Source: Intestinibacillus massiliensis
GTDB lineage: Bacteria > Bacillota > Clostridia > Oscillospirales > Butyricicoccaceae
Length of the DNA stretch: 64,000 nucleotides
Direction of reading: 5' to 3'
Assembly (NCBI RefSeq): GCF_900155735.1
Contig: NZ_LT707059.1
Coordinates: 466,171 to 530,170, forward strand
Part shown: one piece after another, positions 18,457-61,253 of the stretch
How the letters are laid out: each line of letters begins with the position of its first letter
How positions within the stretch are numbered: the first letter of the stretch is position 1
Program-made: the position numbers and the translations under genes
Notes under the pieces: generated by a model
Told to the model about the DNA's origin: nothing
Databases searched by the model: none
What the model saw: the letters and a program-made list of their open reading frames with translations, nothing else

Positions 18457-18485
18457 TTTATTTTCGAAAAGTTGGTAAAATGTGC

Positions 18486-18514
18486 TTGACAAATGGGGAG
18501 CGGAAAGGTATTAT
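18486..18514 (+). promoter_or_regulatory. Sigma70 promoter of rubrerythrin gene
   Basis: TTGACA, 17 nt, TATTAT(AAT), followed by inverted repeat ATAAT-N7-ATTAT (18514-18530). Confidence 0.55.
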
Positions 18515-18573
18515 AATAACAAGAATTATTCCTGAATTTATCCGAAATCTTAAATGTGAAGGGAGTCTTTATC

Positions 18574-34008: not shown

Positions 34009-34051
34009 AACACCGCCTCCCACAATCTGAATTTTACATCTGATGGTAACT

Positions 34052-34080
34052 AAACCTTATCATAGGTTCATGTGAACCGC
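34052..34080. promoter_or_regulatory. Overlapping palindromes AACCTtatcatAGGTTCAtgTGAACC, putative operator
   Basis: Perfect 14-bp palindrome GGTTCATGTGAACC fused to AACCT-N6-AGGTT, 44-70 nt upstream of the DUF1836 gene start. Confidence 0.3.
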
Positions 34081-34405
34081 AAGCAGCAGGAATGCAGAAT
34101 TACTGCGCTAAAATTTGTATATTTTTGTCGAACCTCGAAATACCTTTTTGGGCGCATTGTAAAAAGCTATTAAAAACGTGCTTTAATTAATATTTTATGC
34201 TTTCACATTGAACTTGCTGAAGATGAGACAACACAAAAGCGTAAAATATAAATTCAAAGCGTTGTTTTATGATTGTGTTTCAAAATGTAAAAGAATAATA
34301 TATAAATACAAGATGATTGCAGAGTATAAAGCGGGATATGGGGAGAAATATTACACATCGGTAAAAGTGATATTTATTAATTACATGAAAAGGAGAGGAA
34401 GCGCT

Positions 34406-43293: not shown

Positions 43294-43427
43294 CCCATGC
43301 CTGCGGGCCTGGTTCCCAGCCCCGCTGTCAAATGCGGGGGAAAAGGGGCGCATGGAAAAAGAGCCGACTTGTCCGGCGGACGGTCTAAAGCCCGTCCGCT
43401 TTTCATAGGATGGGACAGGTGATGAAC

Positions 43428-44339
43428 ATGGAAGAAAAACGGCTATCCAACTTTGCGCAGGCAATCACGGCGCTGCCGATCCGGCTGCAGCGGGAAGCGC
43501 TGGCGCTCCCGCCGGAAATACGGTGCGCCTGTGAGGAGCTTCGGCTGCGTGCGGGCAAGCCTATGGCGTACAGCCGTACAGGCATGGAAACCGCGTTCGG
43601 CAAAGACCCGATCAGCGCGGACGACTTACAGGAGACCCTGGGACGCGCCACACGGTATTCGGTACATAGCTATGGGGAAAGCCTGCAAAACGGCTTCGTA
43701 ACCCTGGAGGGCGGGCACCGGCTCGGCCTGTGCGGCACGGCCGTGCTGCGGGAGGGGACGGTATCCGGCGTGCGCGCCCTGTCCTCGATCAATTTGCGGA
43801 TCGCGTCCCAGGTACCGGGCGCGGCGGATGCGGTGCTGCCGTCCCTTCTGCGGGATGGCCGTCCGGTGAGCACCCTTGTCATATCGCCGCCTGCGTGGGG
43901 CAAGACCACGCTGCTGCGCGACTGCATCCGGCAATTGTCCGAAGCCGGCGTGCGGGTTTCCGTAGCGGACGAGCGCTGCGAAATCGCAGGCTCCTCCGGC
44001 GGCGCGCCGCAGTTTGATCTGGGGCCGCAGACCGATGTGATGGACGGCGCGCCGAAGGCGGACGCGGCGCTGATCCTGATTAAAACCATGTCCCCCGCGC
44101 TGCTGGCGCTCGATGAGATCACGGCGCCGCGCGATGTGGAAGCGGTGTCCTATGCCGCGCATTGCGGCGCAGCCGTGCTCGCAACGGCGCACGCCCTGGA
44201 TTTTGCGGATTTTAAACGGCGGCCGCTGTACCGTCAATTATTGCGGAGCCAAATTTTTGAACAGGCCGTCGAGATTTCCCTCCACGAGGGCGTACGGCGG
44301 TACACGGTGCGGGCGTTGGGGGGCGAACAGGGATGCTGA
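43428..44339 (+). CDS. spoIIIAA: Stage III sporulation protein AA (ATPase)
   Basis: Walker A PPAWGKTT. AGGTGA RBS 5 nt before ATG 43428. Alternative in-frame ATGs at 43410 and 43422. Confidence 0.85.
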   Translation: MEEKRLSNFAQAITALPIRLQREALALPPEIRCACEELRLRAGKPMAYSRTGMETAFGKDPISADDLQETLGRATRYSVHSYGESLQNGFVTLEGGHRLGLCGTAVLREGTVSGVRALSSINLRIASQVPGAADAVLPSLLRDGRPVSTLVISPPAWGKTTLLRDCIRQLSEAGVRVSVADERCEIAGSSGGAPQFDLGPQTDVMDGAPKADAALILIKTMSPALLALDEITAPRDVEAVSYAAHCGAAVLATAHALDFADFKRRPLYRQLLRSQIFEQAVEISLHEGVRRYTVRALGGEQGC

Positions 44340-44851
44340 AGCTTTTAGGGACGGTGATGATTTTGGGCGCCTGCTCTGCGCTCGGGCTTTCGGCAAAGCA
44401 GCGCCTGCGCCAGCGGCTGCGCGCGCTGGAAGCGATGATTGCCGCGCTACAGTTTATTTCTTCCGAGCTAACCTGCCGGATGACGCCCCTGCCCGAGCTG
44501 ATCGCGGCGCTTGCGCAGTCCGAAAACGGTATCACGCGGAAGATTTTCGGCGTCATGTGCAAAAAGATGGGGCAGGACGACGGGCTGTCCCTGCCGTACA
44601 AGTGGTGCCGCGCATTCCAGGAATGCCGCGAGCAGGCCGGGCTGGGGGAGGAGGAAACGCACTTGCTCTGCGACGCTGCGGGGTTCCTGGGGCGGTACGA
44701 CGCGGCGCAGCAGGTAAAGAGCCTGGAGTATGTCAGGCGGCGCTTGGGTGACCTGCGCCTTGCCGCCGTGGAGGAACTGAGAAGCAAAGGGAACCTGTAC
44801 CGCACCTGCGGCATCGCCATGGGCATTGTAACCGTACTGGTCCTGCTGTGA
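44333..44851 (+). CDS. spoIIIAB: Stage III sporulation protein AB
   Basis: 172 aa. Overlaps the spoIIIAA stop. Typical AB sequence (AMIAALQFISSEL). Confidence 0.85.
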   Translation: MLKLLGTVMILGACSALGLSAKQRLRQRLRALEAMIAALQFISSELTCRMTPLPELIAALAQSENGITRKIFGVMCKKMGQDDGLSLPYKWCRAFQECREQAGLGEEETHLLCDAAGFLGRYDAAQQVKSLEYVRRRLGDLRLAAVEELRSKGNLYRTCGIAMGIVTVLVLL

Positions 44852-44882
44852 ACGGAAGTACGAAAAACGGGAGGAAGGCAAC

Positions 44883-45080
44883 ATGCAAATAGACCTGATT
44901 TTTAAGATCGCCGCAATCGGTATCATCGTCGCGGTGCTGAACCAGCTCCTTGTCCGTTCCGGACGGGAGGAACAGGCGATGATGACGACGCTGGCCGGCC
45001 TGATCGTCGTGCTGATGATGATCATCCAGGAGATCAGCCAGTTGTTCTCGCTCATCAAATCGGTATTCGGGTTTTACTAA
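44883..45080 (+). CDS. spoIIIAC: Stage III sporulation protein AC
   Basis: 65 aa two-TM protein MQIDLIFKIAAIGIIVAVL. Confidence 0.85.
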   Translation: MQIDLIFKIAAIGIIVAVLNQLLVRSGREEQAMMTTLAGLIVVLMMIIQEISQLFSLIKSVFGFY

Positions 45081-45081
45081 A

Positions 45082-45471
45082 ATGGGCGGGATATTATCGG
45101 TCGTCGGCATCGCGCTGACTGCGGCAATTTTTGCGCTTGTGCTGCAGAAGGACGCGCCGGGACCGGCGTTCCTCTTGACGCTTGCGGCGGGGATTCTGAT
45201 CTTCGGGTTTGCGGTGCGCGGCGTCGGGCAGATCGCGCAGACGCTGGACGGCGTGCTGTCCGCCGCGGGGATTGAGGACGGGCTGTACCTGCCCGTGGTC
45301 AAGGCGGTCGGGATTGCCGCCGTAGTGCGCGTGGCCGCCGCGTTCTGCCGGGATGCGGGACAATCCTCGCTCGCGGCAAAGGTCGAACTGACCGGTGCGG
45401 TCGCGGCGATGGCGGTGTGCCTGCCGCTCTTCCAGCGCGTGCTTGAAATGGTGTCCACGCTGATACGCTGA
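45082..45471 (+). CDS. spoIIIAD: Stage III sporulation protein AD
   Basis: 129 aa hydrophobic protein immediately after AC. Confidence 0.85.
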   Translation: MGGILSVVGIALTAAIFALVLQKDAPGPAFLLTLAAGILIFGFAVRGVGQIAQTLDGVLSAAGIEDGLYLPVVKAVGIAAVVRVAAAFCRDAGQSSLAAKVELTGAVAAMAVCLPLFQRVLEMVSTLIR

Positions 45472-45484
45472 AAGGACAGGATGT

Positions 45485-46600
45485 ATGAAAAAGAGACTGC
45501 TTTTGGGCATTTTGCTTGCATTTGCCCTGCTGCTGCCCGCAGGCGCTTACGACGAGGGGCTGTATCAGCAGCAGCTCTCCGCAATCGGCGGGGACGCGCT
45601 CCGCAGCGCGGCGGGCGGGCAGGGTGGCGCTTACCTATCGGGGCTTTCGCCATCGCCGGATGCGGATATCGGCACGTCGCTCGCAACGCTGGTCGAGCGC
45701 ACCGCAGGGGAAAACGGCAAGGCGTTCCACGCCGCGCTGCGCAGCCTGACGCGCGTCATGATGGTGGTCGTCCTGTGCGGGTGCGCGGCGGGGTTCCACA
45801 CGGCGGCGGGCGGCGCCACCCCGGCGGCAATCAATATGGCGGGCGCGCTCGGCGTGACGGCGGTACTGCTCGGCGATATGCGGGGGCTTCTGGCGCTGTG
45901 CAGCGGCACGCTTGAGCAGGTCAGCGTCTTTTCCAAAACCATGCTCCCCGTCATGGCGGCCGCCATCTCGCTCACAGGCGCGCCCACGACCGCAACCGTG
46001 ATGCAGGCTGCGACAATGTTCGCGTTCGATTTGCTGGTGCGCTTCATCACGGCGGTTCTCGTCCCGGCAGTCTGCGCATATATCGTACTGATCACGGTGA
46101 ACGCCGCAATGGGCAATGATATGCTTGAACGGCTCGCGGCTTTTGTCAAGTGGGCGACTACAACCAGCCTCAAGCTTATCCTGACGCTGTTTATCGCGTA
46201 TATCACGATTTCAGGCTCGCTCGGGGGCAGCGTGGACGGCATTGCGGTCAAAGCGGCCAAGTTTGCCGTATCCGGCTCGGTACCCGTGGTGGGCGGTATC
46301 ATTTCCGACGCGGCGGAAACCATGCTGTCCGGCGCGCTGCTGCTGAAAAACACGGTTGGGATTTTCGGCATGGTGTGCATCGCGGCGATCTGCATTGTAC
46401 CGTTTTTCAAGGTCGGCATCAGCTATCTGCTGTTTAAAGCGGGTTCGGCGGCGCTTTCCCCGGTGTGTAGCGCAAGCCTGTCCAAGCTGATCGGCGGTAT
46501 CAGCGACAGCTTCGGGCTGCTGCTCGGCATGCTGGGCACATGCAGCGCAGTGCTGTTTTTCGAGCTGGTGTTCTCGGTCGCATTGGTGAAACCCGCATGA
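45485..46600 (+). CDS. spoIIIAE: Stage III sporulation protein AE
   Basis: 371 aa, signal peptide plus polytopic membrane domain. Confidence 0.85.
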   Translation: MKKRLLLGILLAFALLLPAGAYDEGLYQQQLSAIGGDALRSAAGGQGGAYLSGLSPSPDADIGTSLATLVERTAGENGKAFHAALRSLTRVMMVVVLCGCAAGFHTAAGGATPAAINMAGALGVTAVLLGDMRGLLALCSGTLEQVSVFSKTMLPVMAAAISLTGAPTTATVMQAATMFAFDLLVRFITAVLVPAVCAYIVLITVNAAMGNDMLERLAAFVKWATTTSLKLILTLFIAYITISGSLGGSVDGIAVKAAKFAVSGSVPVVGGIISDAAETMLSGALLLKNTVGIFGMVCIAAICIVPFFKVGISYLLFKAGSAALSPVCSASLSKLIGGISDSFGLLLGMLGTCSAVLFFELVFSVALVKPA

Positions 46601-47085
46601 TCGAGATGGTACGGCAGATGATCGTCAGTGTAACGGCCGCCGCGGTTTTTTCGACCGTTATGTTGCTGATCGTGCAGAAGAGCGCGCTGCACGAGGTGAT
46701 CCGGCTCGCCACCGGTATGCTTATGATCCTGGCGCTGCTGCTGCCGCTGTCGCGTCTGACGCTGCCTTCCTTCAGCCGCGCGTTTGCGGCGGAGCGCGCG
46801 CAGGCCGAGCGGCAGACGGAAGAAGCAAAACAGAAAAACGAACAGATCGCCTATTCCAGCATTGGCGGCGCGGTGTCGCAATATATCGAGAAGCAGGCTG
46901 GGGAACTCGGGATCAAATGTACGGTGCGTACCGAAATGGAGCAGGGCACGGACGGCACATGGGTGATCGGCCGGGTGCGCATCCGGGGAAAAGGGCTGAC
47001 GGGCGTACAGCGGCAGCAGCTCGCTGCGCTGGTGGAAAAGGAATGTGGCGTGCCCCCGGCACGGCAAGACTTGGTAGAGGGCTGA
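46597..47085 (+). CDS. spoIIIAF: Stage III sporulation protein AF
   Basis: Start ATG overlapping the AE stop (ATGA). MIEMVRQMIVSVTAAAVF. Confidence 0.8.
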   Translation: MIEMVRQMIVSVTAAAVFSTVMLLIVQKSALHEVIRLATGMLMILALLLPLSRLTLPSFSRAFAAERAQAERQTEEAKQKNEQIAYSSIGGAVSQYIEKQAGELGIKCTVRTEMEQGTDGTWVIGRVRIRGKGLTGVQRQQLAALVEKECGVPPARQDLVEG

Positions 47086-47090
47086 AAGTT

Positions 47091-47648
47091 ATGGAAAAGG
47101 AAAAGCTTTTAAACATTATGCGCAAGGCGGAACCGGTCCTGAAACGCTACCGGTATCCGATCCTCGTGCTGTTTGCCGGGCTGCTGATCCTGGCGCTCGG
47201 CGCGCCGAAGAAGGAAGCTGCGCCTGCAAGCGCGCAGGATACGCAGGAAGCCGCGTCGGCGGATGGTACGGCGCAGGACGGGGGGTTCGACCTCGCGGCC
47301 TTTGAGGAAAAGCTGCAGCAGGACGTCAGCCGGATCAGCGGCGTGGGGCGGGTCAGCCTTTCCCTGTCGCTCAAATCCACGGAGGAAGCGGTATATGCCG
47401 CCGATATCCGACAGAGCAGCCAGAATACGGAGACCACGTCCTACGAAAGCGCGCTTTCCATCGTGTCGGACGGCAGCTATGGGCAGCAGCCGATTTTAGT
47501 CAAAAAGCAGTATCCCACCTTCCGGGGGGCGCTTGTCCTGTGCGACGGTGCGGACAACGACACGGTGCGCCTCGCGGTGACCGACGCCGTCAGCACCATG
47601 TGCGGCATCGGCGCAGACAAGGTTTCAGTGCTCAAAATGCAGAGCTGA
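47091..47648 (+). CDS. spoIIIAG: Stage III sporulation protein AG
   Basis: Start MEKEKLLN after GAGGG. N-terminal TM, C-terminal YscJ-like ring domain. Confidence 0.8.
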   Translation: MEKEKLLNIMRKAEPVLKRYRYPILVLFAGLLILALGAPKKEAAPASAQDTQEAASADGTAQDGGFDLAAFEEKLQQDVSRISGVGRVSLSLSLKSTEEAVYAADIRQSSQNTETTSYESALSIVSDGSYGQQPILVKKQYPTFRGALVLCDGADNDTVRLAVTDAVSTMCGIGADKVSVLKMQS

Positions 47649-47687
47649 ACATAGAGTAATAAAAACTGACAGGCAGGAGGAAGGAAT

Positions 47688-48290
47688 ATGGTATCCATTC
47701 GTAAAAGAGGGGCGGTATACGGCGTTATTGCGCTGATGCTGTGCGTAGCGGTGTACTTAAACTGGAGCTACGTCAAAACGCCGGATGACCTGGTCGTCGC
47801 TCAGCAGGCCGACGAGGAGGCGCAGGCCGGGAAGAATTACGGCGAGGCGGAACAGGTCGACAGCCTGACAACGGACGGCACGGACGCGGAAACGGCGGCC
47901 GGGACGGCTCCGGAAGAAGCGGCGGTCGTTTCCAAGGAGGACTACTTCGCGCAGTCGCGGCTGTCGCGGGAAAAGGCGCGCGACGAGGCGATCAGCATCC
48001 TGAAGGAGACCGTGGAGAGCGATAAGGCGGATGAAAAGGCCAAGAACGAAGCCAGCCAGAAGATCTCCGCCCTTGCGGAAAACTCCGTGCAGGAAGCGCG
48101 GGTGGAGAGCCTCATCAAGGCCAAGGGCTACGCGGAAGCGGTCGTGTTTATCGGGGAGGACAGCGTCAACGTCATCGTACAGCCGCCCCAGGCGGGCTTT
48201 GAGGCGTCGGACGCTTCGAAAATCAAAGATATTGTGGTCACGGAGACCGGCGCGGCGGCGGACAAAATTAAAATTGTGGAAGCCGCCTGA
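47688..48290 (+). CDS. spoIIIAH: Stage III sporulation protein AH
   Basis: 200 aa, N-terminal TM, acidic linker, C-terminal YscJ/FliF-like domain. Confidence 0.8.
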   Translation: MVSIRKRGAVYGVIALMLCVAVYLNWSYVKTPDDLVVAQQADEEAQAGKNYGEAEQVDSLTTDGTDAETAAGTAPEEAAVVSKEDYFAQSRLSREKARDEAISILKETVESDKADEKAKNEASQKISALAENSVQEARVESLIKAKGYAEAVVFIGEDSVNVIVQPPQAGFEASDASKIKDIVVTETGAAADKIKIVEAA

Positions 48291-48426
48291 TCGCGGATTG
48301 CAGCTTTCCTTTTGGTCAAGACTATGGTATAATGTCTGAAAAGTAAAACCATGAAGGCGGCCATAGCAGGCGCCGGAGTGGCATGTGGCGCGCAGCGCCA
48401 TAACATGCAAAAGGAGAGTGAGCAGT

Positions 48427-48837
48427 ATGGCGGAAAACAACTACTGGTCCACAACGGGAGATCAGGGCACGATAAAAATCTCGGAAGACGTGGTTGCATC
48501 CATAGCGGCGCTTGCAGCGGCTGAAACCGACGGGGTCAGCGCCCTTTATTCCAGCCTTACCTCGGATATTGTGAGCTTCCTCGGGAAAAAGAACCTGTCG
48601 AAGGGCGTGAAAGTGTCCTTTGAAGGGGATTCGGTTGCGGTTGAGATCGGCTTCCTCGCTTCTTTCGGGTGCAACATCCGCGAGGTGGCGAAAAACGTGC
48701 AGGAAGCGGTCAAATCGTCCATCGAATCCATGACCGGCCTGGCCGTATCGGGCGTCAACATCTATGTCGGCGGTATTGCCTTTGCGCCTGCCGCGGAAGA
48801 GGAACCCGGGGCTGCACCCGCCGTACCGGAGGAATAA
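48427..48837 (+). CDS. Asp23/Gls24 family alkaline-shock protein (YqhY-like)
   Basis: MAENNYW...GTIKISEDVVASIAALAA. AGGAGAG RBS. TGnTATAAT extended -10 at about 48326-48334. Confidence 0.85.
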   Translation: MAENNYWSTTGDQGTIKISEDVVASIAALAAAETDGVSALYSSLTSDIVSFLGKKNLSKGVKVSFEGDSVAVEIGFLASFGCNIREVAKNVQEAVKSSIESMTGLAVSGVNIYVGGIAFAPAAEEEPGAAPAVPEE

Positions 48838-48849
48838 CTGCATACTGCC

Positions 48850-48881
48850 AAGCGGCCGGCTTTAATAGCGGCCGCTTTTTT
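48850..48881 (+). terminator. Intrinsic terminator after asp23-family gene
   Basis: AAGCGGCCG-gctttaatag-CGGCCGCTT followed by TTTT. Confidence 0.6.
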
Positions 48882-48968
48882 GTGTTTAAAACCTTGCGTT
48901 TCCTGGGGCTTTGGGGTAAAATAGCTTTATTATGGATGATTATGCAGTTAGATTTGCGGAGGATTGCT

Positions 48969-49421
48969 GTGAGCAGAAAAAAAGCGAGAGAAATTGCCCT
49001 GCATCTGATTTTTGAGATGGGCTTTAAAGAATTTCAGGCGGAAGAGGTTCTGGCCGACCGTTTGGATGAGAGTATTATGTCCTCCATCAGCGGGGATATT
49101 GCGCTGTATGCGGGCAAACTGTCCGAAGCGCAGACGGCGTACATCGTAGCGGTGGTGAAGGGCGTCGCCTCCCACTTGCAGGAACTGGACGCCGTGATCG
49201 AGGAGAACGCGCATGGCTGGAATATGTCGCGCCTGTCGAAAATGACGGTGGCGGTGCTCCGCCTGGCGCTTTACGAAATGCGGTATGTCGAAGACGTGCC
49301 GACAGGCGCGGCGATCAACGAGGCCGTCGAGCTGGCCAAGACCTATGAAACGGAAGAGGCGGGCGCGTTTGTCAACGGCATCCTCGGCACAGTCAGCCGG
49401 GCGCAGGAAGCGGTAGAATGA
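48969..49421 (+). CDS. nusB: Transcription antitermination factor NusB
   Basis: GTG start after GGAGGA. SRKKAREIALHLIFEM NusB N-terminal signature. Own promoter TTGCGT-17-TAAAAT upstream. Confidence 0.85.
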   Translation: MSRKKAREIALHLIFEMGFKEFQAEEVLADRLDESIMSSISGDIALYAGKLSEAQTAYIVAVVKGVASHLQELDAVIEENAHGWNMSRLSKMTVAVLRLALYEMRYVEDVPTGAAINEAVELAKTYETEEAGAFVNGILGTVSRAQEAVE

Positions 49422-50359
49422 ACACGTACCTGGGGATTGATACCAGCAATTACCGCACGTCCGCCGCTATATTTGACGCGGGGACGGGGCAGTGGCGTAA
49501 TGAGGGGCGGCTGCTTGACGTGCCGCAGGGCAAGATCGGCCTGCGGCAGTCCGAAGCGTTGTTCCAGCACACCGTACGCTTGCATGAAATGGTTGCACGC
49601 TTACCCGCCGGCGCGGGTAAGAGCGTCCGCGCGGTTGGCGTGAGCACCAGGCCGCGCGCCGTGGAGGGTTCTTATATGCCTTGCTTCCTCGCGGGGGAAA
49701 ATGTAGCACGCAGCGCGGCGCATCTGTTGGATGTGCCGCTTGTCGTTTGTTCCCATCAGCAGGGGCATTTGGCGGCGGCAGCCCTGTCGGCCGGCGCGCT
49801 CCATTTGCTGCATACGCCTTTCCTGGCATGGCACCTATCCGGCGGCACGACGGAGTTGCTGCTTGTGCGGCCGGGGGCAGACGGGATGCCGGATGCGGCC
49901 TGTATCGGCGGCACCAGCGACCTGTCGGCCGGGCAACTGGTCGACCGGGCGGGGAACTTGCTGGGGCTTGGCTTCCCAGCGGGCGCAGCCCTGGATGATT
50001 TGGCGCAGGCGGCGGAAAATCCGGTAAAACCGTTTGCGCCCAAGGTGCGGGACGGCATATTTTCCCTTTCCGGTGTCGAGAATAAGCTACAGGAGCTATT
50101 GGACCGCCACACACCCGCGCCGGAGCTTGCCCGGTTTACGGTGGAGACCATTGGGCGCGCGGTTTGCACGGCAACCGCACAGGCGCTCGCGCGTTACCCC
50201 CTGCCCGTGCTGTGCGCGGGCGGCGTGATGGCGAATACGATCCTGCGGGAAATGCTCAGCAGGCAGTTTGATGCGCACTTTGCCGCGCCGCAGCTATCCG
50301 GGGATAACGCGGTAGGCGTTGCGGTGCTGGCTGCGGTTAGAAATGGGGAACCATTATGA
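49418..50359 (+). CDS. Kae1/TsaD-like ASKHA-fold protein (glycoprotease family)
   Basis: GIDTSNYRTSAAIF N-terminus and CSHQQGHL motif resembling the TsaD HxxGH site. Overlaps the nusB stop. Confidence 0.6.
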   Translation: MNTYLGIDTSNYRTSAAIFDAGTGQWRNEGRLLDVPQGKIGLRQSEALFQHTVRLHEMVARLPAGAGKSVRAVGVSTRPRAVEGSYMPCFLAGENVARSAAHLLDVPLVVCSHQQGHLAAAALSAGALHLLHTPFLAWHLSGGTTELLLVRPGADGMPDAACIGGTSDLSAGQLVDRAGNLLGLGFPAGAALDDLAQAAENPVKPFAPKVRDGIFSLSGVENKLQELLDRHTPAPELARFTVETIGRAVCTATAQALARYPLPVLCAGGVMANTILREMLSRQFDAHFAAPQLSGDNAVGVAVLAAVRNGEPL

Positions 50360-51651: not shown

Positions 51652-51874
51652 AGAGGCCATGCAGCGTTTGGAGCAAATCGTCCGCCAATTGGAGCATGGC
51701 GATACGACCTTGGAAGAGAGCATGAAGCTGTTTGAAGAAGGGATGAAGCTGTCGGCCGCCTTGGGCAAGCAGCTGGATACCGCAGAACAGAAGGTCACGC
51801 TCATGCTTAAGGATGAAGCTGGCGAACCGGTAGGGCAGGCGTTCTCGCCGGAGGGGAATGACAATGAAATTTGA
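51629..51874 (+). CDS. xseB: Exodeoxyribonuclease VII small subunit
   Basis: MKKKQGFEEAMQRLEQIVRQLEHGDTTLEESMKLFEEGMKL. Overlaps the xseA 3' end. Confidence 0.85.
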   Translation: MKKKQGFEEAMQRLEQIVRQLEHGDTTLEESMKLFEEGMKLSAALGKQLDTAEQKVTLMLKDEAGEPVGQAFSPEGNDNEI

Positions 51875-52748
51875 TGAACAACTGTCAGAAGACATTAAGG
51901 TTGTCGAAGAAACGCTGAAAAAGCATCTTTCGTGCGAAGAAGCGCGTGGACAGGAAAATATTTATGATGCTGTAAAGTATTCTGCCTTTGCGGGCGGGAA
52001 ACGGCTCAGGCCGGTGCTGACCATCGAATTTTGCCGCGCCTGTGGGGCGGATATCCAATCCGCACTGCCCTTTGCCGCGGCAATCGAAATGGTGCACACC
52101 TATTCGCTGATCCACGACGACCTGCCCTGCATGGACGACGACGACCTGCGCCGCGGGCGGCCGACGAACCATAAAGTTTATGGCGAGGCCATGGCGGTTT
52201 TGGCGGGCGATGGGCTGCTGAACCGCGCGTTTGAAACGGCGCTGCAGCCGGGGGTACCCCTTCCCGCGGAAACGGTGCTGCGCGCGGCCACCGCTTTGGC
52301 GCGCGCCTCCGGTATGGACGGGATGATCGGCGGGCAGGTCATCGACATGGAGGCCGAAGGCCATATGCTGAGCGCTGAGGAACTGCAAAACCTGCAGGAT
52401 CTTAAAACTGGCGCGCTGATCCGCGCGGCGGTACAGATGGGCTGCATCGTCGGCGGCGCAGACGAAAAGCAGATGGCCGCGGCGGACGTCTATGCGTCCC
52501 GCCTGGGGCTGGCGTTCCAAATCCAGGATGACATCCTGGATATCGAGGGCAGCACCGAAACGTTTGGCAAGCCGGTCGGCAGCGATGCGGAAAACCGGAA
52601 ATGCACCTACCCGTCCCTGCTTGGGCTGGAAAAGTGCCATACCCTGGTACGTAACCTAACGCAGGAGGCAGTTGAGGCGCTTTCGGCCTTTGGCGACACC
52701 GCGTTTTTGCGCGCGCTGGCGGAAAGCCTGGCCACGCGCGACCATTGA
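51858..52748 (+). CDS. ispA: Polyprenyl (farnesyl/geranylgeranyl) diphosphate synthase
   Basis: DDLPCMDDDDLRRG first Asp-rich motif and DDILD second motif. Confidence 0.85.
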   Translation: MTMKFDEQLSEDIKVVEETLKKHLSCEEARGQENIYDAVKYSAFAGGKRLRPVLTIEFCRACGADIQSALPFAAAIEMVHTYSLIHDDLPCMDDDDLRRGRPTNHKVYGEAMAVLAGDGLLNRAFETALQPGVPLPAETVLRAATALARASGMDGMIGGQVIDMEAEGHMLSAEELQNLQDLKTGALIRAAVQMGCIVGGADEKQMAAADVYASRLGLAFQIQDDILDIEGSTETFGKPVGSDAENRKCTYPSLLGLEKCHTLVRNLTQEAVEALSAFGDTAFLRALAESLATRDH

Positions 52749-52784
52749 GGTTTGCCGGGCTGAGAGAATTCACAGACGGTTCAC

Positions 52785-52813
52785 TTGAAATATCGCGCGT
52801 GTTATGGTAATAT
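52785..52813 (+). promoter_or_regulatory. Sigma70 promoter driving the non-coding interval
   Basis: TTGAAA, 17 nt, TAATAT, 37 nt after the ispA stop. Confidence 0.5.
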
Positions 52814-52819
52814 TTCTAA

Positions 52820-53495
52820 CGAGTGGTGCAGTATCCTAGTCAGTGCATACGATTCCCAGGACGGGCCTAAAAATCCGTAGAAGGGCACATCGATGAAGTC
52901 TCTGGTGCTTGCTTCTTACGCCCAGTTTGGGGTGAGTGCTGGAGGTTAAGGCTTTAGGGCGCGCTTCAATGGCATGAAGTACCGACCCTATTGCCGTGGA
53001 GACCTGTATTCGTGGGACACCTATAGCATCGGTCCGCCGGTTGATGGATGTCCTACGGTACAGGGTGGAACCTGCATTGCGGTATGGAGCGTTTCCTCCC
53101 GGAGGCGCGAAGTGCTGTGTGCAGTGTAGCCTGCCTTGCGTGGTTATGGTGGATGGCGTATCCGCCCGTGGTTTCCCGGCCAGGAACGCCGCGGGAATTG
53201 ACGCTTGAAACCATAGCTGCAAAAGAGGCTAAGAATCGTGTTGGCTGCAGTGGAAATCACCTAGGCTGTCCGAGAGGGGCAGGCGTTGGGATTGCAGTAC
53301 GGACTAAGTGGCAATTCGGTCCCGGTGATGGTAACATCCCGGCTCGGGCTTTAAAGGGAAACCGCCATGACGGCGACGCGTGGCAGCCCCCGGGGAAATC
53401 CAACCGAACCTCAAGCCGTAAGATTAACCTCGCCTGCCGCCACTCATTTTACGAATGCATTGGCCTGAAATGCAAATTTCGGGCATTTTATATTT
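52820..53495 (+). ncRNA. ole: Candidate OLE (ornate large extremophilic) RNA
   Basis: About 675 nt with no plausible ORF (frames are W/C/R-rich and lack an RBS). GC content resembles coding DNA, unlike the AT-rich true intergenic spacers in this window. It has its own promoter and a GNRA-capped terminator hairpin, and lies between ispA and a 4-TM protein followed by dxs-tlyA-nadK-argR-recN. Confidence 0.6.
53463..53495 (+). terminator. Intrinsic terminator at the 3' end of the candidate OLE RNA
   Basis: GCCTGAAAT-GCAA-ATTTCGGGC (GNRA tetraloop) followed by ATTTTATATTT. Confidence 0.6.
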
Positions 53496-53511
53496 AAAGG
53501 GGCGAACTTTT

Positions 53512-54099
53512 TTGGACGGGACGGACAAACGGAAGCGGAAACCAAGGCAGGGGATTTGGCGGCTGGTGAATTTCCGCTGGGTCATCACGATCACGGTGCT
53601 CAGCCTGCTGATCTCCATGTCGCTTTCCTATCTTTCCACGGAGGCGCTTGCCAATGTAGGGAACCTTGCCGCGTTCCTTATCTTGTTTATCTTTATTGCG
53701 CTTGGTATTTTGTTTGACATCATCGGCGTCGCGGCCACCTCGGCGACGGAAAAAGAGTTCCATTCCATGGCCGCAAAGAAAGTCAAGGGCGCGAAAGAGG
53801 CCGTTTGGCTCACGCGCAACGCGGAAAAGGTGTCCAGCTTCTGCAACGACGTGGTCGGCGACATCTCGGGCATCATTTCGGGTGCGACGGGCGCGGTCAT
53901 CATCGCGCGCGTGACGGGCGGCCTGGGGCCTGCGCCCGCCGTGGTCGTATCGCTCACGGTGACCGGGTGCATCGCAGCCATGACAATCGGCGGCAAGGCT
54001 GCGGGCAAAGCGCTCGGCATCGGCTTTAACGGCACAATTTTGTTTGCTGTAGGCAGGCTTTTATCTATTTTGCCATTTTCTTTTGATAAAAAGAAGTAG
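53512..54099 (+). CDS. oapA: OapA-like (OLE-associated) four-TM membrane protein
   Basis: TTG start after AAAGGGG. K/R-rich N-terminus (DGTDKRKRKPRQG) then 4 predicted TM helices. Sits between the non-coding interval and dxs. Confidence 0.6.
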   Translation: MDGTDKRKRKPRQGIWRLVNFRWVITITVLSLLISMSLSYLSTEALANVGNLAAFLILFIFIALGILFDIIGVAATSATEKEFHSMAAKKVKGAKEAVWLTRNAEKVSSFCNDVVGDISGIISGATGAVIIARVTGGLGPAPAVVVSLTVTGCIAAMTIGGKAAGKALGIGFNGTILFAVGRLLSILPFSFDKKK

Positions 54100-54120: not shown

Positions 54121-55998
54121 ATGAAACGTTATGGCGTACTTGACAGGATTAATAAGACGGCGGATTTGCGCGAGCTGCCGTACAGCGTGCTATATGAGCT
54201 GTGCGGCAGCCTGCGCGAATTTATCATAGACCATGTTTCACAGACGGGGGGGCACCTTTCGTCAAACCTGGGCATCGTCGAGCTTGCGGTTGCGCTTGAG
54301 CGTGTGTTCGACTCAAACCGCGACCGCATTATTTATGATGTGGGGCACCAGTGTTACGTCCACAAAATCCTCACCGGGCGCAAAGAAGCCTTCACGTCGC
54401 TGCGGCAGTATGGCGGGCTTTCGGGATTCCTCAAGCCGGAGGAGAGCCAGACAGACCCCTGCATCACCGGGCACGCTTCCAGTTCGGTATCGGTGGCGCT
54501 CGGCATGGCGCATGCGCGCACGCTCAAGAACCAGAAGTATCATGTCGTTGCCGTGATTGGCGACGGCGCGCTGACCGGTGGCATGGCGTATGAAGCGCTC
54601 AATAACGCGGGCGGCAGCGGGGAACCGCTGATCGTCGTTTTAAATGACAATAATATGTCGATTACACAGAATGTCGGCGCGATGAGCCGCCATTTGGCGC
54701 ATTTGCGCGTCAGTCCGCGGTATCAGCGCGCCAAGGCGAAGGTCAAGGGCGCGCTTTCCCACGTACCGGGGGGGCGCACGCTGACAAACGGGATTTCCCG
54801 GGTCAAAAGCGGCATTAAAAGCGTCGTACTGCCGACCACGCTGTTTGAACAGATGGGGTTTGCCTATCTCGGCCCGGTGGACGGGCATGACCTCAAGGCC
54901 GTGTGCGAGATTTTGACACGGGCGAAGGCGATGAAGCAGCCGGTGCTGCTCCATGTCATGACGCGCAAAGGCAAGGGCTACCGGTTCGCGGAGGAGCACC
55001 CGGGCAGTTTCCACGGCGTTTCGCCCTTCGATGTTTTGACAGGCAAGCCGCTGAAACCAGCCGGTATGAATTTTTCCGCTTGCTTCGGGGAGGCGCTATC
55101 GGCGCTCGCCTCACAGGACGAGCGCATCTGCGCCGTCACGGCCGCGATGTCCTCCGGCACCGGCCTGACGGGGTTTGCCGAAAAATACCCGTCCCGGTTT
55201 TTTGACGTCGGTATCGCGGAGGAACATGCGGTGGCGATGTGCGCCGGCATGGCCAAGCAAGGCCTGAAGCCGGTCTGCGCGCTCTATTCAACTTTTTTGC
55301 AGCGCGCATATGATCAAATTATCCACGACGTCGCGATCGAAGGGATCGGCGTGGTGTTTGCCATCGACCGCGCCGGCGTAGTCGGCGAGGACGGCGCGAC
55401 GCATAACGGCGTTTTTGACGTCGGATTCCTGCAGCAGATCCCCGGCGTCACGATCCTGTGCCCGTCCAATTTTGACGAGTTGCGCAGCATGCTGGCGCAG
55501 GCCATCTATAAACGCGGCGGGCCGGTCGCGATCCGTTACCCGCGCGGCGGCGAAGGCGCTTTTACGACGGACACGTCGTCAGAATGGGCGGCCTGCCTGA
55601 CGGGGACGGATAGCCCGGATGTTTCCATTGTCACCTATGGGATCATGGTAAACCAGGCGCTGCAGGCTGCGTCCCTGCTCGAAGGCCAGGGCGTCCGCGT
55701 GCAGGTCTGGAAAATCAACGAGATCAGCGAACAGACCCGGCGCCTGCCGGAAGGATGGGTGCAGTCCTTGGGCGGCAGGGTGCTGGTACTGGAAGACGCG
55801 GTGCACAATGGCTGCTATGGCAAAAGCATAGAGGAAGCGCTGCAGGGCACCGGTATCGAAGTTTGCCTGTGCAACCTGGGCAACCGTTTCCTGCCGCATG
55901 GCAGTGTTGCACAGCTTTATAAAGAATGCGGGATAGACGGGGAAAGCGTCGCCCTGCGCATACAGGAATGGGCGGCATGCCAGCATATGGACGGCTGA
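54121..55998 (+). CDS. dxs: 1-deoxy-D-xylulose-5-phosphate synthase
   Basis: 625 aa, TPP-binding GDG...N motif and transketolase-like domains. Confidence 0.95.
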   Translation: MKRYGVLDRINKTADLRELPYSVLYELCGSLREFIIDHVSQTGGHLSSNLGIVELAVALERVFDSNRDRIIYDVGHQCYVHKILTGRKEAFTSLRQYGGLSGFLKPEESQTDPCITGHASSSVSVALGMAHARTLKNQKYHVVAVIGDGALTGGMAYEALNNAGGSGEPLIVVLNDNNMSITQNVGAMSRHLAHLRVSPRYQRAKAKVKGALSHVPGGRTLTNGISRVKSGIKSVVLPTTLFEQMGFAYLGPVDGHDLKAVCEILTRAKAMKQPVLLHVMTRKGKGYRFAEEHPGSFHGVSPFDVLTGKPLKPAGMNFSACFGEALSALASQDERICAVTAAMSSGTGLTGFAEKYPSRFFDVGIAEEHAVAMCAGMAKQGLKPVCALYSTFLQRAYDQIIHDVAIEGIGVVFAIDRAGVVGEDGATHNGVFDVGFLQQIPGVTILCPSNFDELRSMLAQAIYKRGGPVAIRYPRGGEGAFTTDTSSEWAACLTGTDSPDVSIVTYGIMVNQALQAASLLEGQGVRVQVWKINEISEQTRRLPEGWVQSLGGRVLVLEDAVHNGCYGKSIEEALQGTGIEVCLCNLGNRFLPHGSVAQLYKECGIDGESVALRIQEWAACQHMDG

Positions 55999-61140: not shown

Positions 61141-61194
61141 TGTCGCGGATGTGGCCGGTTTGTGAAGTGTTTGCAAACAATCCTTCCTGGAGAT

Positions 61195-61223
61195 TGACAA
61201 AAGATGCATTAGCATATAATATC
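61195..61223 (+). promoter_or_regulatory. Sigma70-like promoter of marR-ftsH unit
   Basis: TTGACA, 17 nt, TAATAT. Confidence 0.45.
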
Positions 61224-61253
61224 TCTATCATAAAGGAAAGAAGGTGCCGCCTT

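What the first reader, a model, noticed from the sequence alone, without database searches (positions are those of the whole stretch)
52749..54099. Unannotated large structured ncRNA candidate (OLE RNA) plus OapA-like membrane protein inserted between ispA and dxs
About 760 bp separate ispA from the next protein gene.
- Seen in sequence: the interval is GC-balanced like coding DNA, whereas real intergenic spacers here (34040-34405, 18457-18555, 61141-61250) are AT-rich.
- Seen in sequence: no frame gives a believable protein; the longest ORFs are Trp/Cys/Arg-rich and lack an RBS.
- Seen in sequence: a clean TTGAAA-17-TAATAT promoter sits 37 nt after the ispA stop.
- Seen in sequence: the region ends in a GNRA-capped hairpin plus U-tract, and several internal hairpins are present.
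- Established knowledge: the flanking order xseA-xseB-ispA-[RNA]-[4-TM protein]-dxs-tlyA-nadK-argR-recN is the described context of the OLE ribonucleoprotein locus (ole-oapA) in anaerobic and extremophilic Firmicutes. The B. subtilis equivalent (ispA-dxs-yqxC-...-ahrC-recN) lacks the insert.
- Established knowledge: OLE RNA is one of the largest conserved bacterial ncRNAs of still-unclear biochemical function and is usually missing from automated annotation.
Basis: partly seen in the sequence, partly recalled or inferred. Interest (0 to 1): 0.75.

Follow-up and report, generated by a model that had tools for sequence, protein, structure and literature searches.

The report
Ordinary OLE RNA gene with oapA

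The parts
52785..52813 (+). Sigma-A-type promoter-like site, TTGAAA-17-TAATAT with an upstream TG. It implies a transcription start near 52820.
   Evidence: Found by the consensus scan. A site scoring at least 9/12 lies within 70 nt upstream of OLE in 37 of 62 related loci, against 4 of 246 coding controls, and the -10 box ends 7-16 nt before the conserved GUGG in 30 of those 37. A proximal ole promoter is experimentally active in B. halodurans (PMC3413148). Use of the promoter in this organism is inferred.
52807..53459 (+). The ole gene for full-length OLE RNA (extent of the Rfam RF01071 match). The mature RNA probably runs from about 52820 to about 53445-53495.
   Evidence: 466 bits, E 1.3e-133, model 1-616/616. 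142 of 156 model pairs are canonical in the window. Covariation on 18 loci is strong. No variable site occurs across 5 strains. The first ~7 model positions align to the -10 box, and transcription probably starts ~7 nt after it, so the hit overshoots the RNA 5' end by about 13 nt.
52860..52879 (+). Hairpin with the conserved A-rich loop CCUAAAAAUCC. By my reading of the published description this is P4, one of the RNA-RNA dimer contacts.
   Evidence: Rfam structure mapping. The loop is conserved in 15 of 18 aligned sequences. Role from PMC12265935. The stem name is my inference.
52899..52995 (+). Two hairpins with the loops ACGCCCAGU (52918-52926) and CAAUGGCAUG (52967-52976). I read these as P5/P5.1 and P6/P6.1, the kissing-loop partners in the dimer.
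   Evidence: The loop cores GCCCA and GGCAU are invariant in alignment A2. Role from PMC12265935.
53003..53124 (+). Two variable hairpins (P7-like at 53003-53063, P8-like at 53072-53124). Each carries a lineage-specific tip extension relative to the Rfam model, at 53028-53045 and 53087-53110.
   Evidence: The insertions are visible in the cmscan alignment. Both fold as stem extensions, at -28.4 and -28.1 kcal/mol with z = -3.7 and -4.4. Their presence places this RNA in the full-length class rather than variant 1 or 2 (PMC11332333).
53133..53229 (+). Long P9-like arm with the palindromic tip GGCC at 53178-53181, the symmetric kissing loop of the dimer.
   Evidence: Folds at -48.7 kcal/mol, z = -4.7. 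The tip is GGCC in 15 of 18 sequences and is replaced by the palindromes GUAC or AGCU in the other three. This matches the covariation reported in PMC12286853.
53270..53438 (+). The 3' domain ('domain 2'). It includes a GNRA-capped, bulged hairpin CCGG-U-GAUG-GUAA-CAUC-CCGG at 53322-53339 (P13-like, the OapB site) and a second GNRA hairpin with GCGA at 53373-53376.
   Evidence: The helices here are 86-100% paired across loci, apart from the second GNRA hairpin at 79%. OapB's requirement for a GNRA loop plus a single-nucleotide bulge is from PMC7936274.
53463..53494 (+). GNRA-capped hairpin plus an interrupted U-tract. It is probably a partial terminator or a 3'-end stabiliser between ole and oapA.
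   Evidence: A hairpin at the same offset, with compensatory changes, occurs in the close relatives L005, L006 and L008, but in only 14 of 67 loci overall. Function is inferred.
53512..54099 (+). The oapA gene: 195 aa, TTG start, ribosome-binding site AAAGGGG at 53497-53503, 20.5 kDa, pI 10.1.
51858..52748 (+). Upstream neighbour ispA (farnesyl diphosphate synthase).
   Evidence: Pfam PF00348 at 1.8e-61. NCBIfam FPPsyn at 351.7 bits.
54121..55998 (+). Downstream neighbour dxs (DXP synthase).
   Evidence: Pfam DXP_synthase_N at 2.2e-115.

Best explanation
The interval is the ole gene, and the gene after it is oapA.

Shown here:
- A full-length OLE RNA is encoded at about 52820-53450 on the + strand.
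- It keeps the family's base-paired architecture and all of its conserved loops.
- It is under very strong purifying selection.
- It is followed 50-70 nt later by a four-helix, CNNM-like, basic membrane protein carrying the OapA signature DxxxD.

Inferred from position and from experiments in Halalkalibacterium halodurans:
- The RNA is made from its own promoter just upstream (52785-52813).
- A hairpin and weak U-tract at 53463-53494 let only part of transcription continue into oapA-dxs. The RNA therefore accumulates well above the oapA mRNA.

Inferred from the literature, not tested here:
- Two OLE RNAs dimerise through the A-rich loop, the GCCCA/UGGC kissing loops and the GGCC tip.
- OapA dimers anchor this dimer in the cell membrane.
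- The complex behaves like an RNA-regulated counterpart of MpfA/CorB-type Mg2+ exporters. The RNA stands in for the cytoplasmic CBS and CorC domains that OapA lacks.
- The complex helps the cell cope with alcohol, cold, excess Mg2+ and poor carbon sources.

The exact biochemical activity of the family remains unknown.
For: - Rfam OLE hit: 466 bits against a cut-off of 50, full length, and the only Rfam hit in the window.
- 142 of 156 model pairs are canonical in the window.
- On a MAFFT alignment of 18 loci that was not fitted to the structure, 86.9% of cells are paired against 38.7-47.9% when partners are slid. 107 pairs change on both sides against 48-68 in slid controls. The covariation score is 0.519 against at most 0.145, and 0 of 500 shuffles reach the observed values.
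- The 626-nt RNA has 0 variable sites among 5 strains, against 8.5-56 per kb in the neighbouring genes.
- OLE lies immediately upstream of the OapA homologue in 18 of 18 loci by cmscan and in 82 of 84 by nhmmer. These include a Bacillaceae species, Sporobacter and Anaerosolibacter. Synteny is conserved.
- Promoter position is conserved across lineages, and the equivalent promoter is active in B. halodurans (PMC3413148).
- The conserved loops and GNRA hairpins are present.
Against: - There is no expression, localisation or binding data for this organism.
- The U-tract after the hairpin is interrupted, and most relatives have no such hairpin (14 of 67 loci). The attenuation step is therefore the weakest inference.
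- OapB, OapC and MpfA genes were not found among about 58 ORFs in this window, but the rest of the genome is unseen.
- The bulge in the P13-like hairpin sits 4 bp from the GNRA loop in the best pairing, against 3 bp in the Rfam consensus register.
- The membrane-spanning and ion-transport model is a literature hypothesis, not an established mechanism.
Confidence: 0.95

Rival explanations
1. The structured RNA is a cis-acting 5' leader of the oapA-dxs mRNA, a very large regulatory element, and not a stand-alone RNA that acts as part of a ribonucleoprotein.
For: It is on the same strand and ends only about 50-70 nt before oapA. The terminator is weak. 53 of 67 related loci show no terminator-like hairpin between OLE and oapA, so a joint ole-oapA transcript is likely in many species.
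Against: The sequence is a full-length member of OLE. In B. halodurans, OLE accumulates as a single, very stable RNA, rises about 7-fold with ethanol while oapA mRNA barely changes, and partially rescues the deletion phenotypes when ole and oap together are supplied at a distal locus (PMC3413148). The family binds OapA, OapB and OapC as a particle (PMC9723947, PMC7936274). About 29 loci keep OLE-oapA with a different upstream gene.
Confidence: 0.03
2. The interval encodes one or more small proteins, for example the 149-aa ORF at 53048-53497 or the 128-aa ORF on the minus strand.
For: ORFs of 149, 128 and 70 aa exist, and the composition is close to that of coding DNA.
Against: These ORFs have no Pfam match at E<1 and no ribosome-binding site upstream. 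Gene callers leave the gap empty on independent contigs. Changes between species are compensatory in RNA helices. There is no variation even at positions that would be synonymous.
Confidence: 0.01
3. The locus is a decaying, non-functional OLE remnant.
For: 14 of 156 model pairs are non-canonical in the window. There are two insertions relative to the model. Defective ole genes have been reported in organisms that lack OapA (PMC11332333).
Against: oapA is intact and conserved. Both insertions fold as clean stem extensions at hairpin tips. All conserved loops are kept. The bit score lies in the middle of the range for other loci, 356-547. No polymorphism occurs in the RNA across strains that differ by about 2% elsewhere.
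Confidence: 0.01

Closest known systems
OLE RNA (Rfam RF01071), e.g. ole of Halalkalibacterium halodurans C-125 and the Clostridium acetobutylicum OLE solved by cryo-EM
   Same: Full-length match to the family model, with the same helices and the same conserved single-stranded blocks. The A-rich loop, the GCCCA/UGGC loops, the GGCC tip and two GNRA hairpins are all present. A proximal promoter sits at the same relative position. The neighbours are the same: ispA upstream, oapA-dxs-tlyA-nadK-argR-recN downstream.
   Different: There are 18-nt and 24-nt stem extensions at the tips of the two variable hairpins. The host has higher G+C (59%). A terminator-like hairpin between ole and oapA appears in this small clade and in only 14 of the 67 related loci scanned. 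The bulge in the P13-like hairpin is one base pair further from the loop than in the consensus register.
OapA (OLE-associated protein A)
   Same: It lies immediately downstream of ole, has four transmembrane helices, a DxxxD motif and basic cytoplasmic segments, and is about 20 kDa. It shows weak CNNM similarity, and CorB 7M1U is the best structural match.
   Different: None of substance. Direct comparison with the H. halodurans protein sequence was not possible. The most distant relative compared directly was from Pseudalkalibacillus salsuginis, a member of the Bacillaceae, at 46% identity.
MpfA / CorB / CorC (CNNM-family Mg2+ exporters)
   Different: OapA scores below the Pfam CNNM cut-off, has four membrane helices where CorB has three, carries DxxxD, and lacks the CBS pair and the CorC_HlyC domain. 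It is always paired with an RNA gene.

Membership tests
OLE RNA (RF01071) | Covariance-model score above Rfam's gathering threshold over the whole model | tested here: met
   466 bits against 50, E 1.3e-133, model positions 1-616 of 616.
OLE RNA (RF01071) | Ornate secondary structure supported by covariation | tested here: met
   142 of 156 pairs are canonical in the window. On 18 loci, 86.9% of cells are paired against 39-48% in slid controls, and 107 pairs change on both sides.
OLE RNA (RF01071) | Full-length class, with the P7, P8 and P9 stems present (not variant 1 or 2) | tested here: met
   Hairpins lie at 53003-53063, 53072-53124 and 53133-53229 and are longer than the model. Class definitions are from PMC11332333.
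OLE RNA (RF01071) | Blocks of near-invariant nucleotides (about 25% of positions) | tested here: met
   GGGCACAUCGAUGAAG, GUGUAGCCUGCCUUG, GGACUAAGUGGCAAU, UUUAAAGGGAAACC and GGGGAAAUCC are all present. Alignment A2 has 120 invariant columns.
OLE RNA (RF01071) | Loops that form the RNA dimer: the A-rich loop, the two kissing loops and the palindromic P9 tip | tested here: met
   The sequences are present at 52866, 52918, 52967 and 53178. Dimerisation itself cannot be tested here.
OLE RNA (RF01071) | OapB site: a P13 hairpin with a GNRA loop and a single-nucleotide bulge | tested here: met
   CCGG-U-GAUG-GUAA-CAUC-CCGG at 53322-53339. The bulge sits 4 bp from the loop, against 3 bp in the consensus register, and the effect of this on binding is unknown.
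OLE RNA (RF01071) | Kink-turn near P5 that is bound by OapC | not tested
   The flanking conserved sequence (CGAUGAAG ... GUGGAGA) is present, but I did not model the k-turn.
OLE RNA (RF01071) | The oapA gene immediately downstream | tested here: met
   oapA lies at 53512-54099. The same pairing is seen in 82 of 84 loci.
OLE RNA (RF01071) | Host is an anaerobic or extremophilic member of the Bacillota | tested here: met
   The closest named OapA relatives are Intestinibacillus, Butyricicoccus and Agathobaculum, all Butyricicoccaceae in the Clostridia. The window carries [FeFe]-hydrogenase, rubrerythrin and spoIIIA genes.
OLE RNA (RF01071) | Abundant, stable RNA of about 600 nt that localises to the membrane | not testable with these tools
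   This needs RNA-seq, a Northern blot or imaging.
OapA | Four transmembrane helices | tested here: met
   AF2 helices span 21-48, 51-77, 104-134 and 140-171, mean pLDDT 77.9. Hydropathy peaks fall at 24-42, 55-73, 114-132 and 141-159.
OapA | DxxxD motif | tested here: met
   D113-V-V-G-D117, invariant in 22 homologues.
OapA | Cluster of positively charged residues | tested here: met
   8 Lys/Arg in residues 1-22 and 7 in the loop 78-112; pI 10.1. Which side of the membrane these face was not determined.
OapA | Weak similarity to the CNNM domain, with CorB as the best structural match | tested here: met
OapA | Lacks the conserved proline of CNNM domains | not tested
   I made no residue-level alignment to CNNM.
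OapA | Binds OLE RNA (2:1) and brings it to the membrane | not testable with these tools
   This needs a biochemical assay.
MpfA/CorB/CorC CNNM transporters | Passes the Pfam CNNM threshold and carries CBS-pair and CorC_HlyC domains | tested here: not met
   17.5 bits is below the 28.4 cut-off. The protein is only 195 aa and has no other domain.

The most novel reading that the evidence does not exclude
In this Butyricicoccaceae-like clade the OLE particle may be built or expressed differently from the H. halodurans model. ole would be a separate transcription unit closed by a clade-specific terminator. The OapB site has a shifted bulge. Two related metagenome-assembled genomes (loci L016 and L019) keep an intact oapA with no ole beside it, which would mean OapA can work without an adjacent OLE RNA, or perhaps without any.
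Probability: 0.1. Interest if true: 0.35.

Novelty: already known. Interest (0 to 1): 0.12.

Why it matters
OLE is one of the largest conserved bacterial RNAs whose biochemical function is still unknown, so correct annotation of ole-oapA in gut anaerobes is useful. This locus adds no new kind of element and opens no new test. Its practical value is modest. It shows that the RNA is the most strongly conserved stretch of the region within a species. It also adds one more sequence, with two extended hairpin tips, to alignments used for structure work.

Tried and rejected
- OapA has no match above threshold in Pfam at default settings, NCBIfam or PDB sequences, whether searched as a single sequence or as a profile. 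Membership therefore had to rest on motif, fold, weak CNNM similarity and synteny.
- The genome scan did not find the source species. The exact protein occurs only on metagenome contigs.
- I could not obtain the H. halodurans OapA sequence for a direct comparison.
- I tested whether the terminator after OLE is a family-wide feature. It is not: 14 of 67 loci have one, against 19 of 262 control windows.
- I looked for OLE remnants beside the two orphan oapA genes and found none.
- I looked for OapB, OapC and MpfA in the window and found none.
- The protein-coding reading of the gap is rejected.

Full report
**Observation.**
- ispA ends at 52748. The next supported gene starts at a TTG at 53512, preceded by AAAGGGG, which leaves 763 bp.
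- The ORFs inside the gap (149 aa on +, 128 aa on -, and shorter ones) have no Pfam match even at E<1 and no ribosome-binding site upstream.
- Gene callers working on four independent metagenome contigs of the same species leave the gap empty. They call the downstream gene with exactly the 195-aa TTG-start product.
- The promoter-like TTGAAA-17-TAATAT with an upstream TG lies at 52785-52813. The hairpin GCCUGAAAU-GCAA-AUUUCGGGC lies at 53463-53484 and is followed by an interrupted U-tract.
- Pfam and NCBIfam confirm xseA, xseB, ispA, dxs, tlyA, nadK, argR and recN in the stated order.
- Further upstream lie the spoIIIA operon, an Asp23/yqhY-like gene, nusB and a TsaD-like gene.

**Identity of the RNA.**
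- A scan of the whole window against Rfam 15 returns one hit: OLE (RF01071) at 52807-53459 on the + strand. It scores 466 bits against a gathering score of 50, E 1.3e-133, and covers model positions 1-616 of 616.
- Mapping the model's structure onto the window sequence gives 156 pairs, of which 142 are canonical.
- The two stretches that the model treats as insertions (53028-53045 and 53087-53110) sit at the tips of two variable hairpins. Both fold as clean stem extensions. With the long third arm also present, the RNA belongs to the 'full-length' class, not the shortened variants 1 and 2 described by Fernando and Breaker (PMC11332333).

**Comparative evidence.**
- A scan of one genome per species with an alignment of the downstream protein returned 80 loci.
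- cmscan found a full-length OLE immediately upstream, on the same strand, in 18 of 18 diverse loci, at 356-547 bits. These include Pseudalkalibacillus salsuginis (Bacillaceae), Sporobacter termitidis and an Anaerosolibacter genome.
- nhmmer found OLE in 82 of 84 loci.
- I aligned 18 of these RNAs with MAFFT, so the alignment is not fitted to the structure, and counted the Rfam pairs. 86.9% of cells are paired against 38.7-47.9% when the 3' partners are slid by 1-3 columns. 107 of 156 pairs change on both sides against 48-68 in slid controls. The covariation score is 0.519 against at most 0.145, and no shuffle out of 500 reaches the observed values.
- Four metagenome contigs of the same species are 98.0-98.6% identical to the window over 4-6.6 kb. 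Across these five strains the 626-nt RNA has no variable site. xseA, ispA, dxs, tlyA, nadK and oapA have 8.5-56 variable sites per kb.

**Known functional elements.** The stem names below are my reading of the published descriptions and should be taken as inference. All of these elements are present:
- The hairpin with the A-rich loop CCUAAAAAUCC (52860-52879).
- The loops ACGCCCAGU and CAAUGGCAUG (52918 and 52967).
- The palindromic GGCC at the tip of the long arm (53178).
- A bulged hairpin capped by GUAA (53322-53339).
- A second hairpin capped by GCGA (53373).

According to PMC12265935, PMC12286853 and PMC7936274, these are the dimer contacts and the OapB sites. In my alignment the tip palindrome is GGCC in 15 of 18 sequences, GUAC in two and AGCU in one. 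Palindrome-to-palindrome switching of this kind (GGCC to GAUC or AGCU) is what Kretsch et al. reported.

**The protein.** The 195-aa product has no match above threshold in Pfam, NCBIfam or PDB sequences. It does meet the published OapA criteria:
- D113xxxD117 is invariant in 22 homologues.
- An AlphaFold2 model (mean pLDDT 77.9) has four long helices that coincide with the four hydropathy peaks.
- The N-terminus has 8 Lys/Arg in 22 residues, and the pI is 10.1.
- All 22 homologues scanned give a weak hit to the CNNM domain. The window protein scores 17.5 bits, below the 28.4 cut-off.

**How it most likely works.**
- Shown here: the RNA, its structure, its constraint, and its pairing with OapA.
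- Inferred, transcription start: the RNA has its own promoter. A promoter-like site of at least 9/12 lies within 70 nt upstream in 37 of 62 loci, against 4 of 246 coding controls. In 30 of those 37 the -10 box ends 7-16 nt before the conserved GUGG. The equivalent promoter raises expression more than 100-fold in B. halodurans (PMC3413148).
- Inferred, more weakly: the hairpin at 53463-53494 terminates or stabilises the RNA, so that it exceeds the oapA mRNA in amount. The hairpin is conserved with compensatory changes in the three closest genera but occurs in only 14 of 67 loci overall.
- From the literature only: two RNAs dimerise, OapA anchors the dimer in the membrane, and the particle acts like an RNA-equipped relative of MpfA/CorB Mg2+ exporters in tolerance of alcohol, cold, Mg2+ and poor carbon sources (PMC12265935, PMC11332333, PMC10898510).

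**Verdict.** The element is a standard member of a family that is in Rfam, has 2,822 catalogued representatives in Bacillota, and has partial cryo-EM structures. The differences seen here are small and lineage-specific: the tip extensions, a clade-specific 3' hairpin, and a one-base-pair shift of the P13 bulge. I rate it already known and of low interest.

Noticed in passing
L016 1-1083 and L019 3212-4522: Two related metagenome-assembled genomes carry an intact oapA (62-63% identical to the window's, DxxxD kept, same dxs-tlyA-nadK-argR downstream) with no OLE beside it. nhmmer finds nothing even at E<100 and cmscan nothing at E<0.01. In L019, oapA has its own promoter-like site.
   Followed up: partly
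window 52820-53445 compared with L001-L004: Among five strains of this species that differ by about 1.5-2%, the OLE RNA has no variable site at all. It is the most conserved stretch of the 6.6-kb region.
   Followed up: yes
window 53507: The strains differ by one T in the T-run between the oapA ribosome-binding site and its TTG start, which changes the spacing by one base.
   Followed up: no
window 48385-49421: An Asp23/yqhY-like gene (48385-48837, 106 bits) overlaps the longest reading of the nusB ORF (48669-49421, NusB domain only at residues 105-244). The real nusB start is therefore probably downstream of 48837. yqhY is listed in the literature as a frequent neighbour of ole.
   Followed up: partly
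window 49418-50359: A 313-aa protein with only a moderate TsaD-family match (74.5 bits) sits between nusB and xseA. It is syntenic in at least 15 related loci.
   Followed up: no
L080 3321-3869; L073 3300-3920: The OLE of the Eubacterium sp. MAG (L080) lacks the two variable hairpins, like variant 2, and its 3' end diverges. The first ~95 nt of the Anaerosolibacter (L073) hit do not align with other OLE RNAs.
   Followed up: no
alignment A2 columns 144-162 (L021, L030, L036): The two Sporobacter sequences and one Oscillospiraceae sequence carry an extra insert of about 19 nt (GAAGCGCGGUUUUCCGCGC) after the long hairpin. It looks like an additional small hairpin.
   Followed up: no
window 52807-52820: The first positions of the Rfam OLE model align to the -10 box of the promoter. 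Rfam hit boundaries therefore probably overshoot the true 5' end of the RNA by about 13 nt.
   Followed up: partly
window 43410-48290: A spoIIIAA-AH sporulation operon lies just upstream of the ole cluster. This fits the published correlation between OLE and sporulation genes.
   Followed up: no
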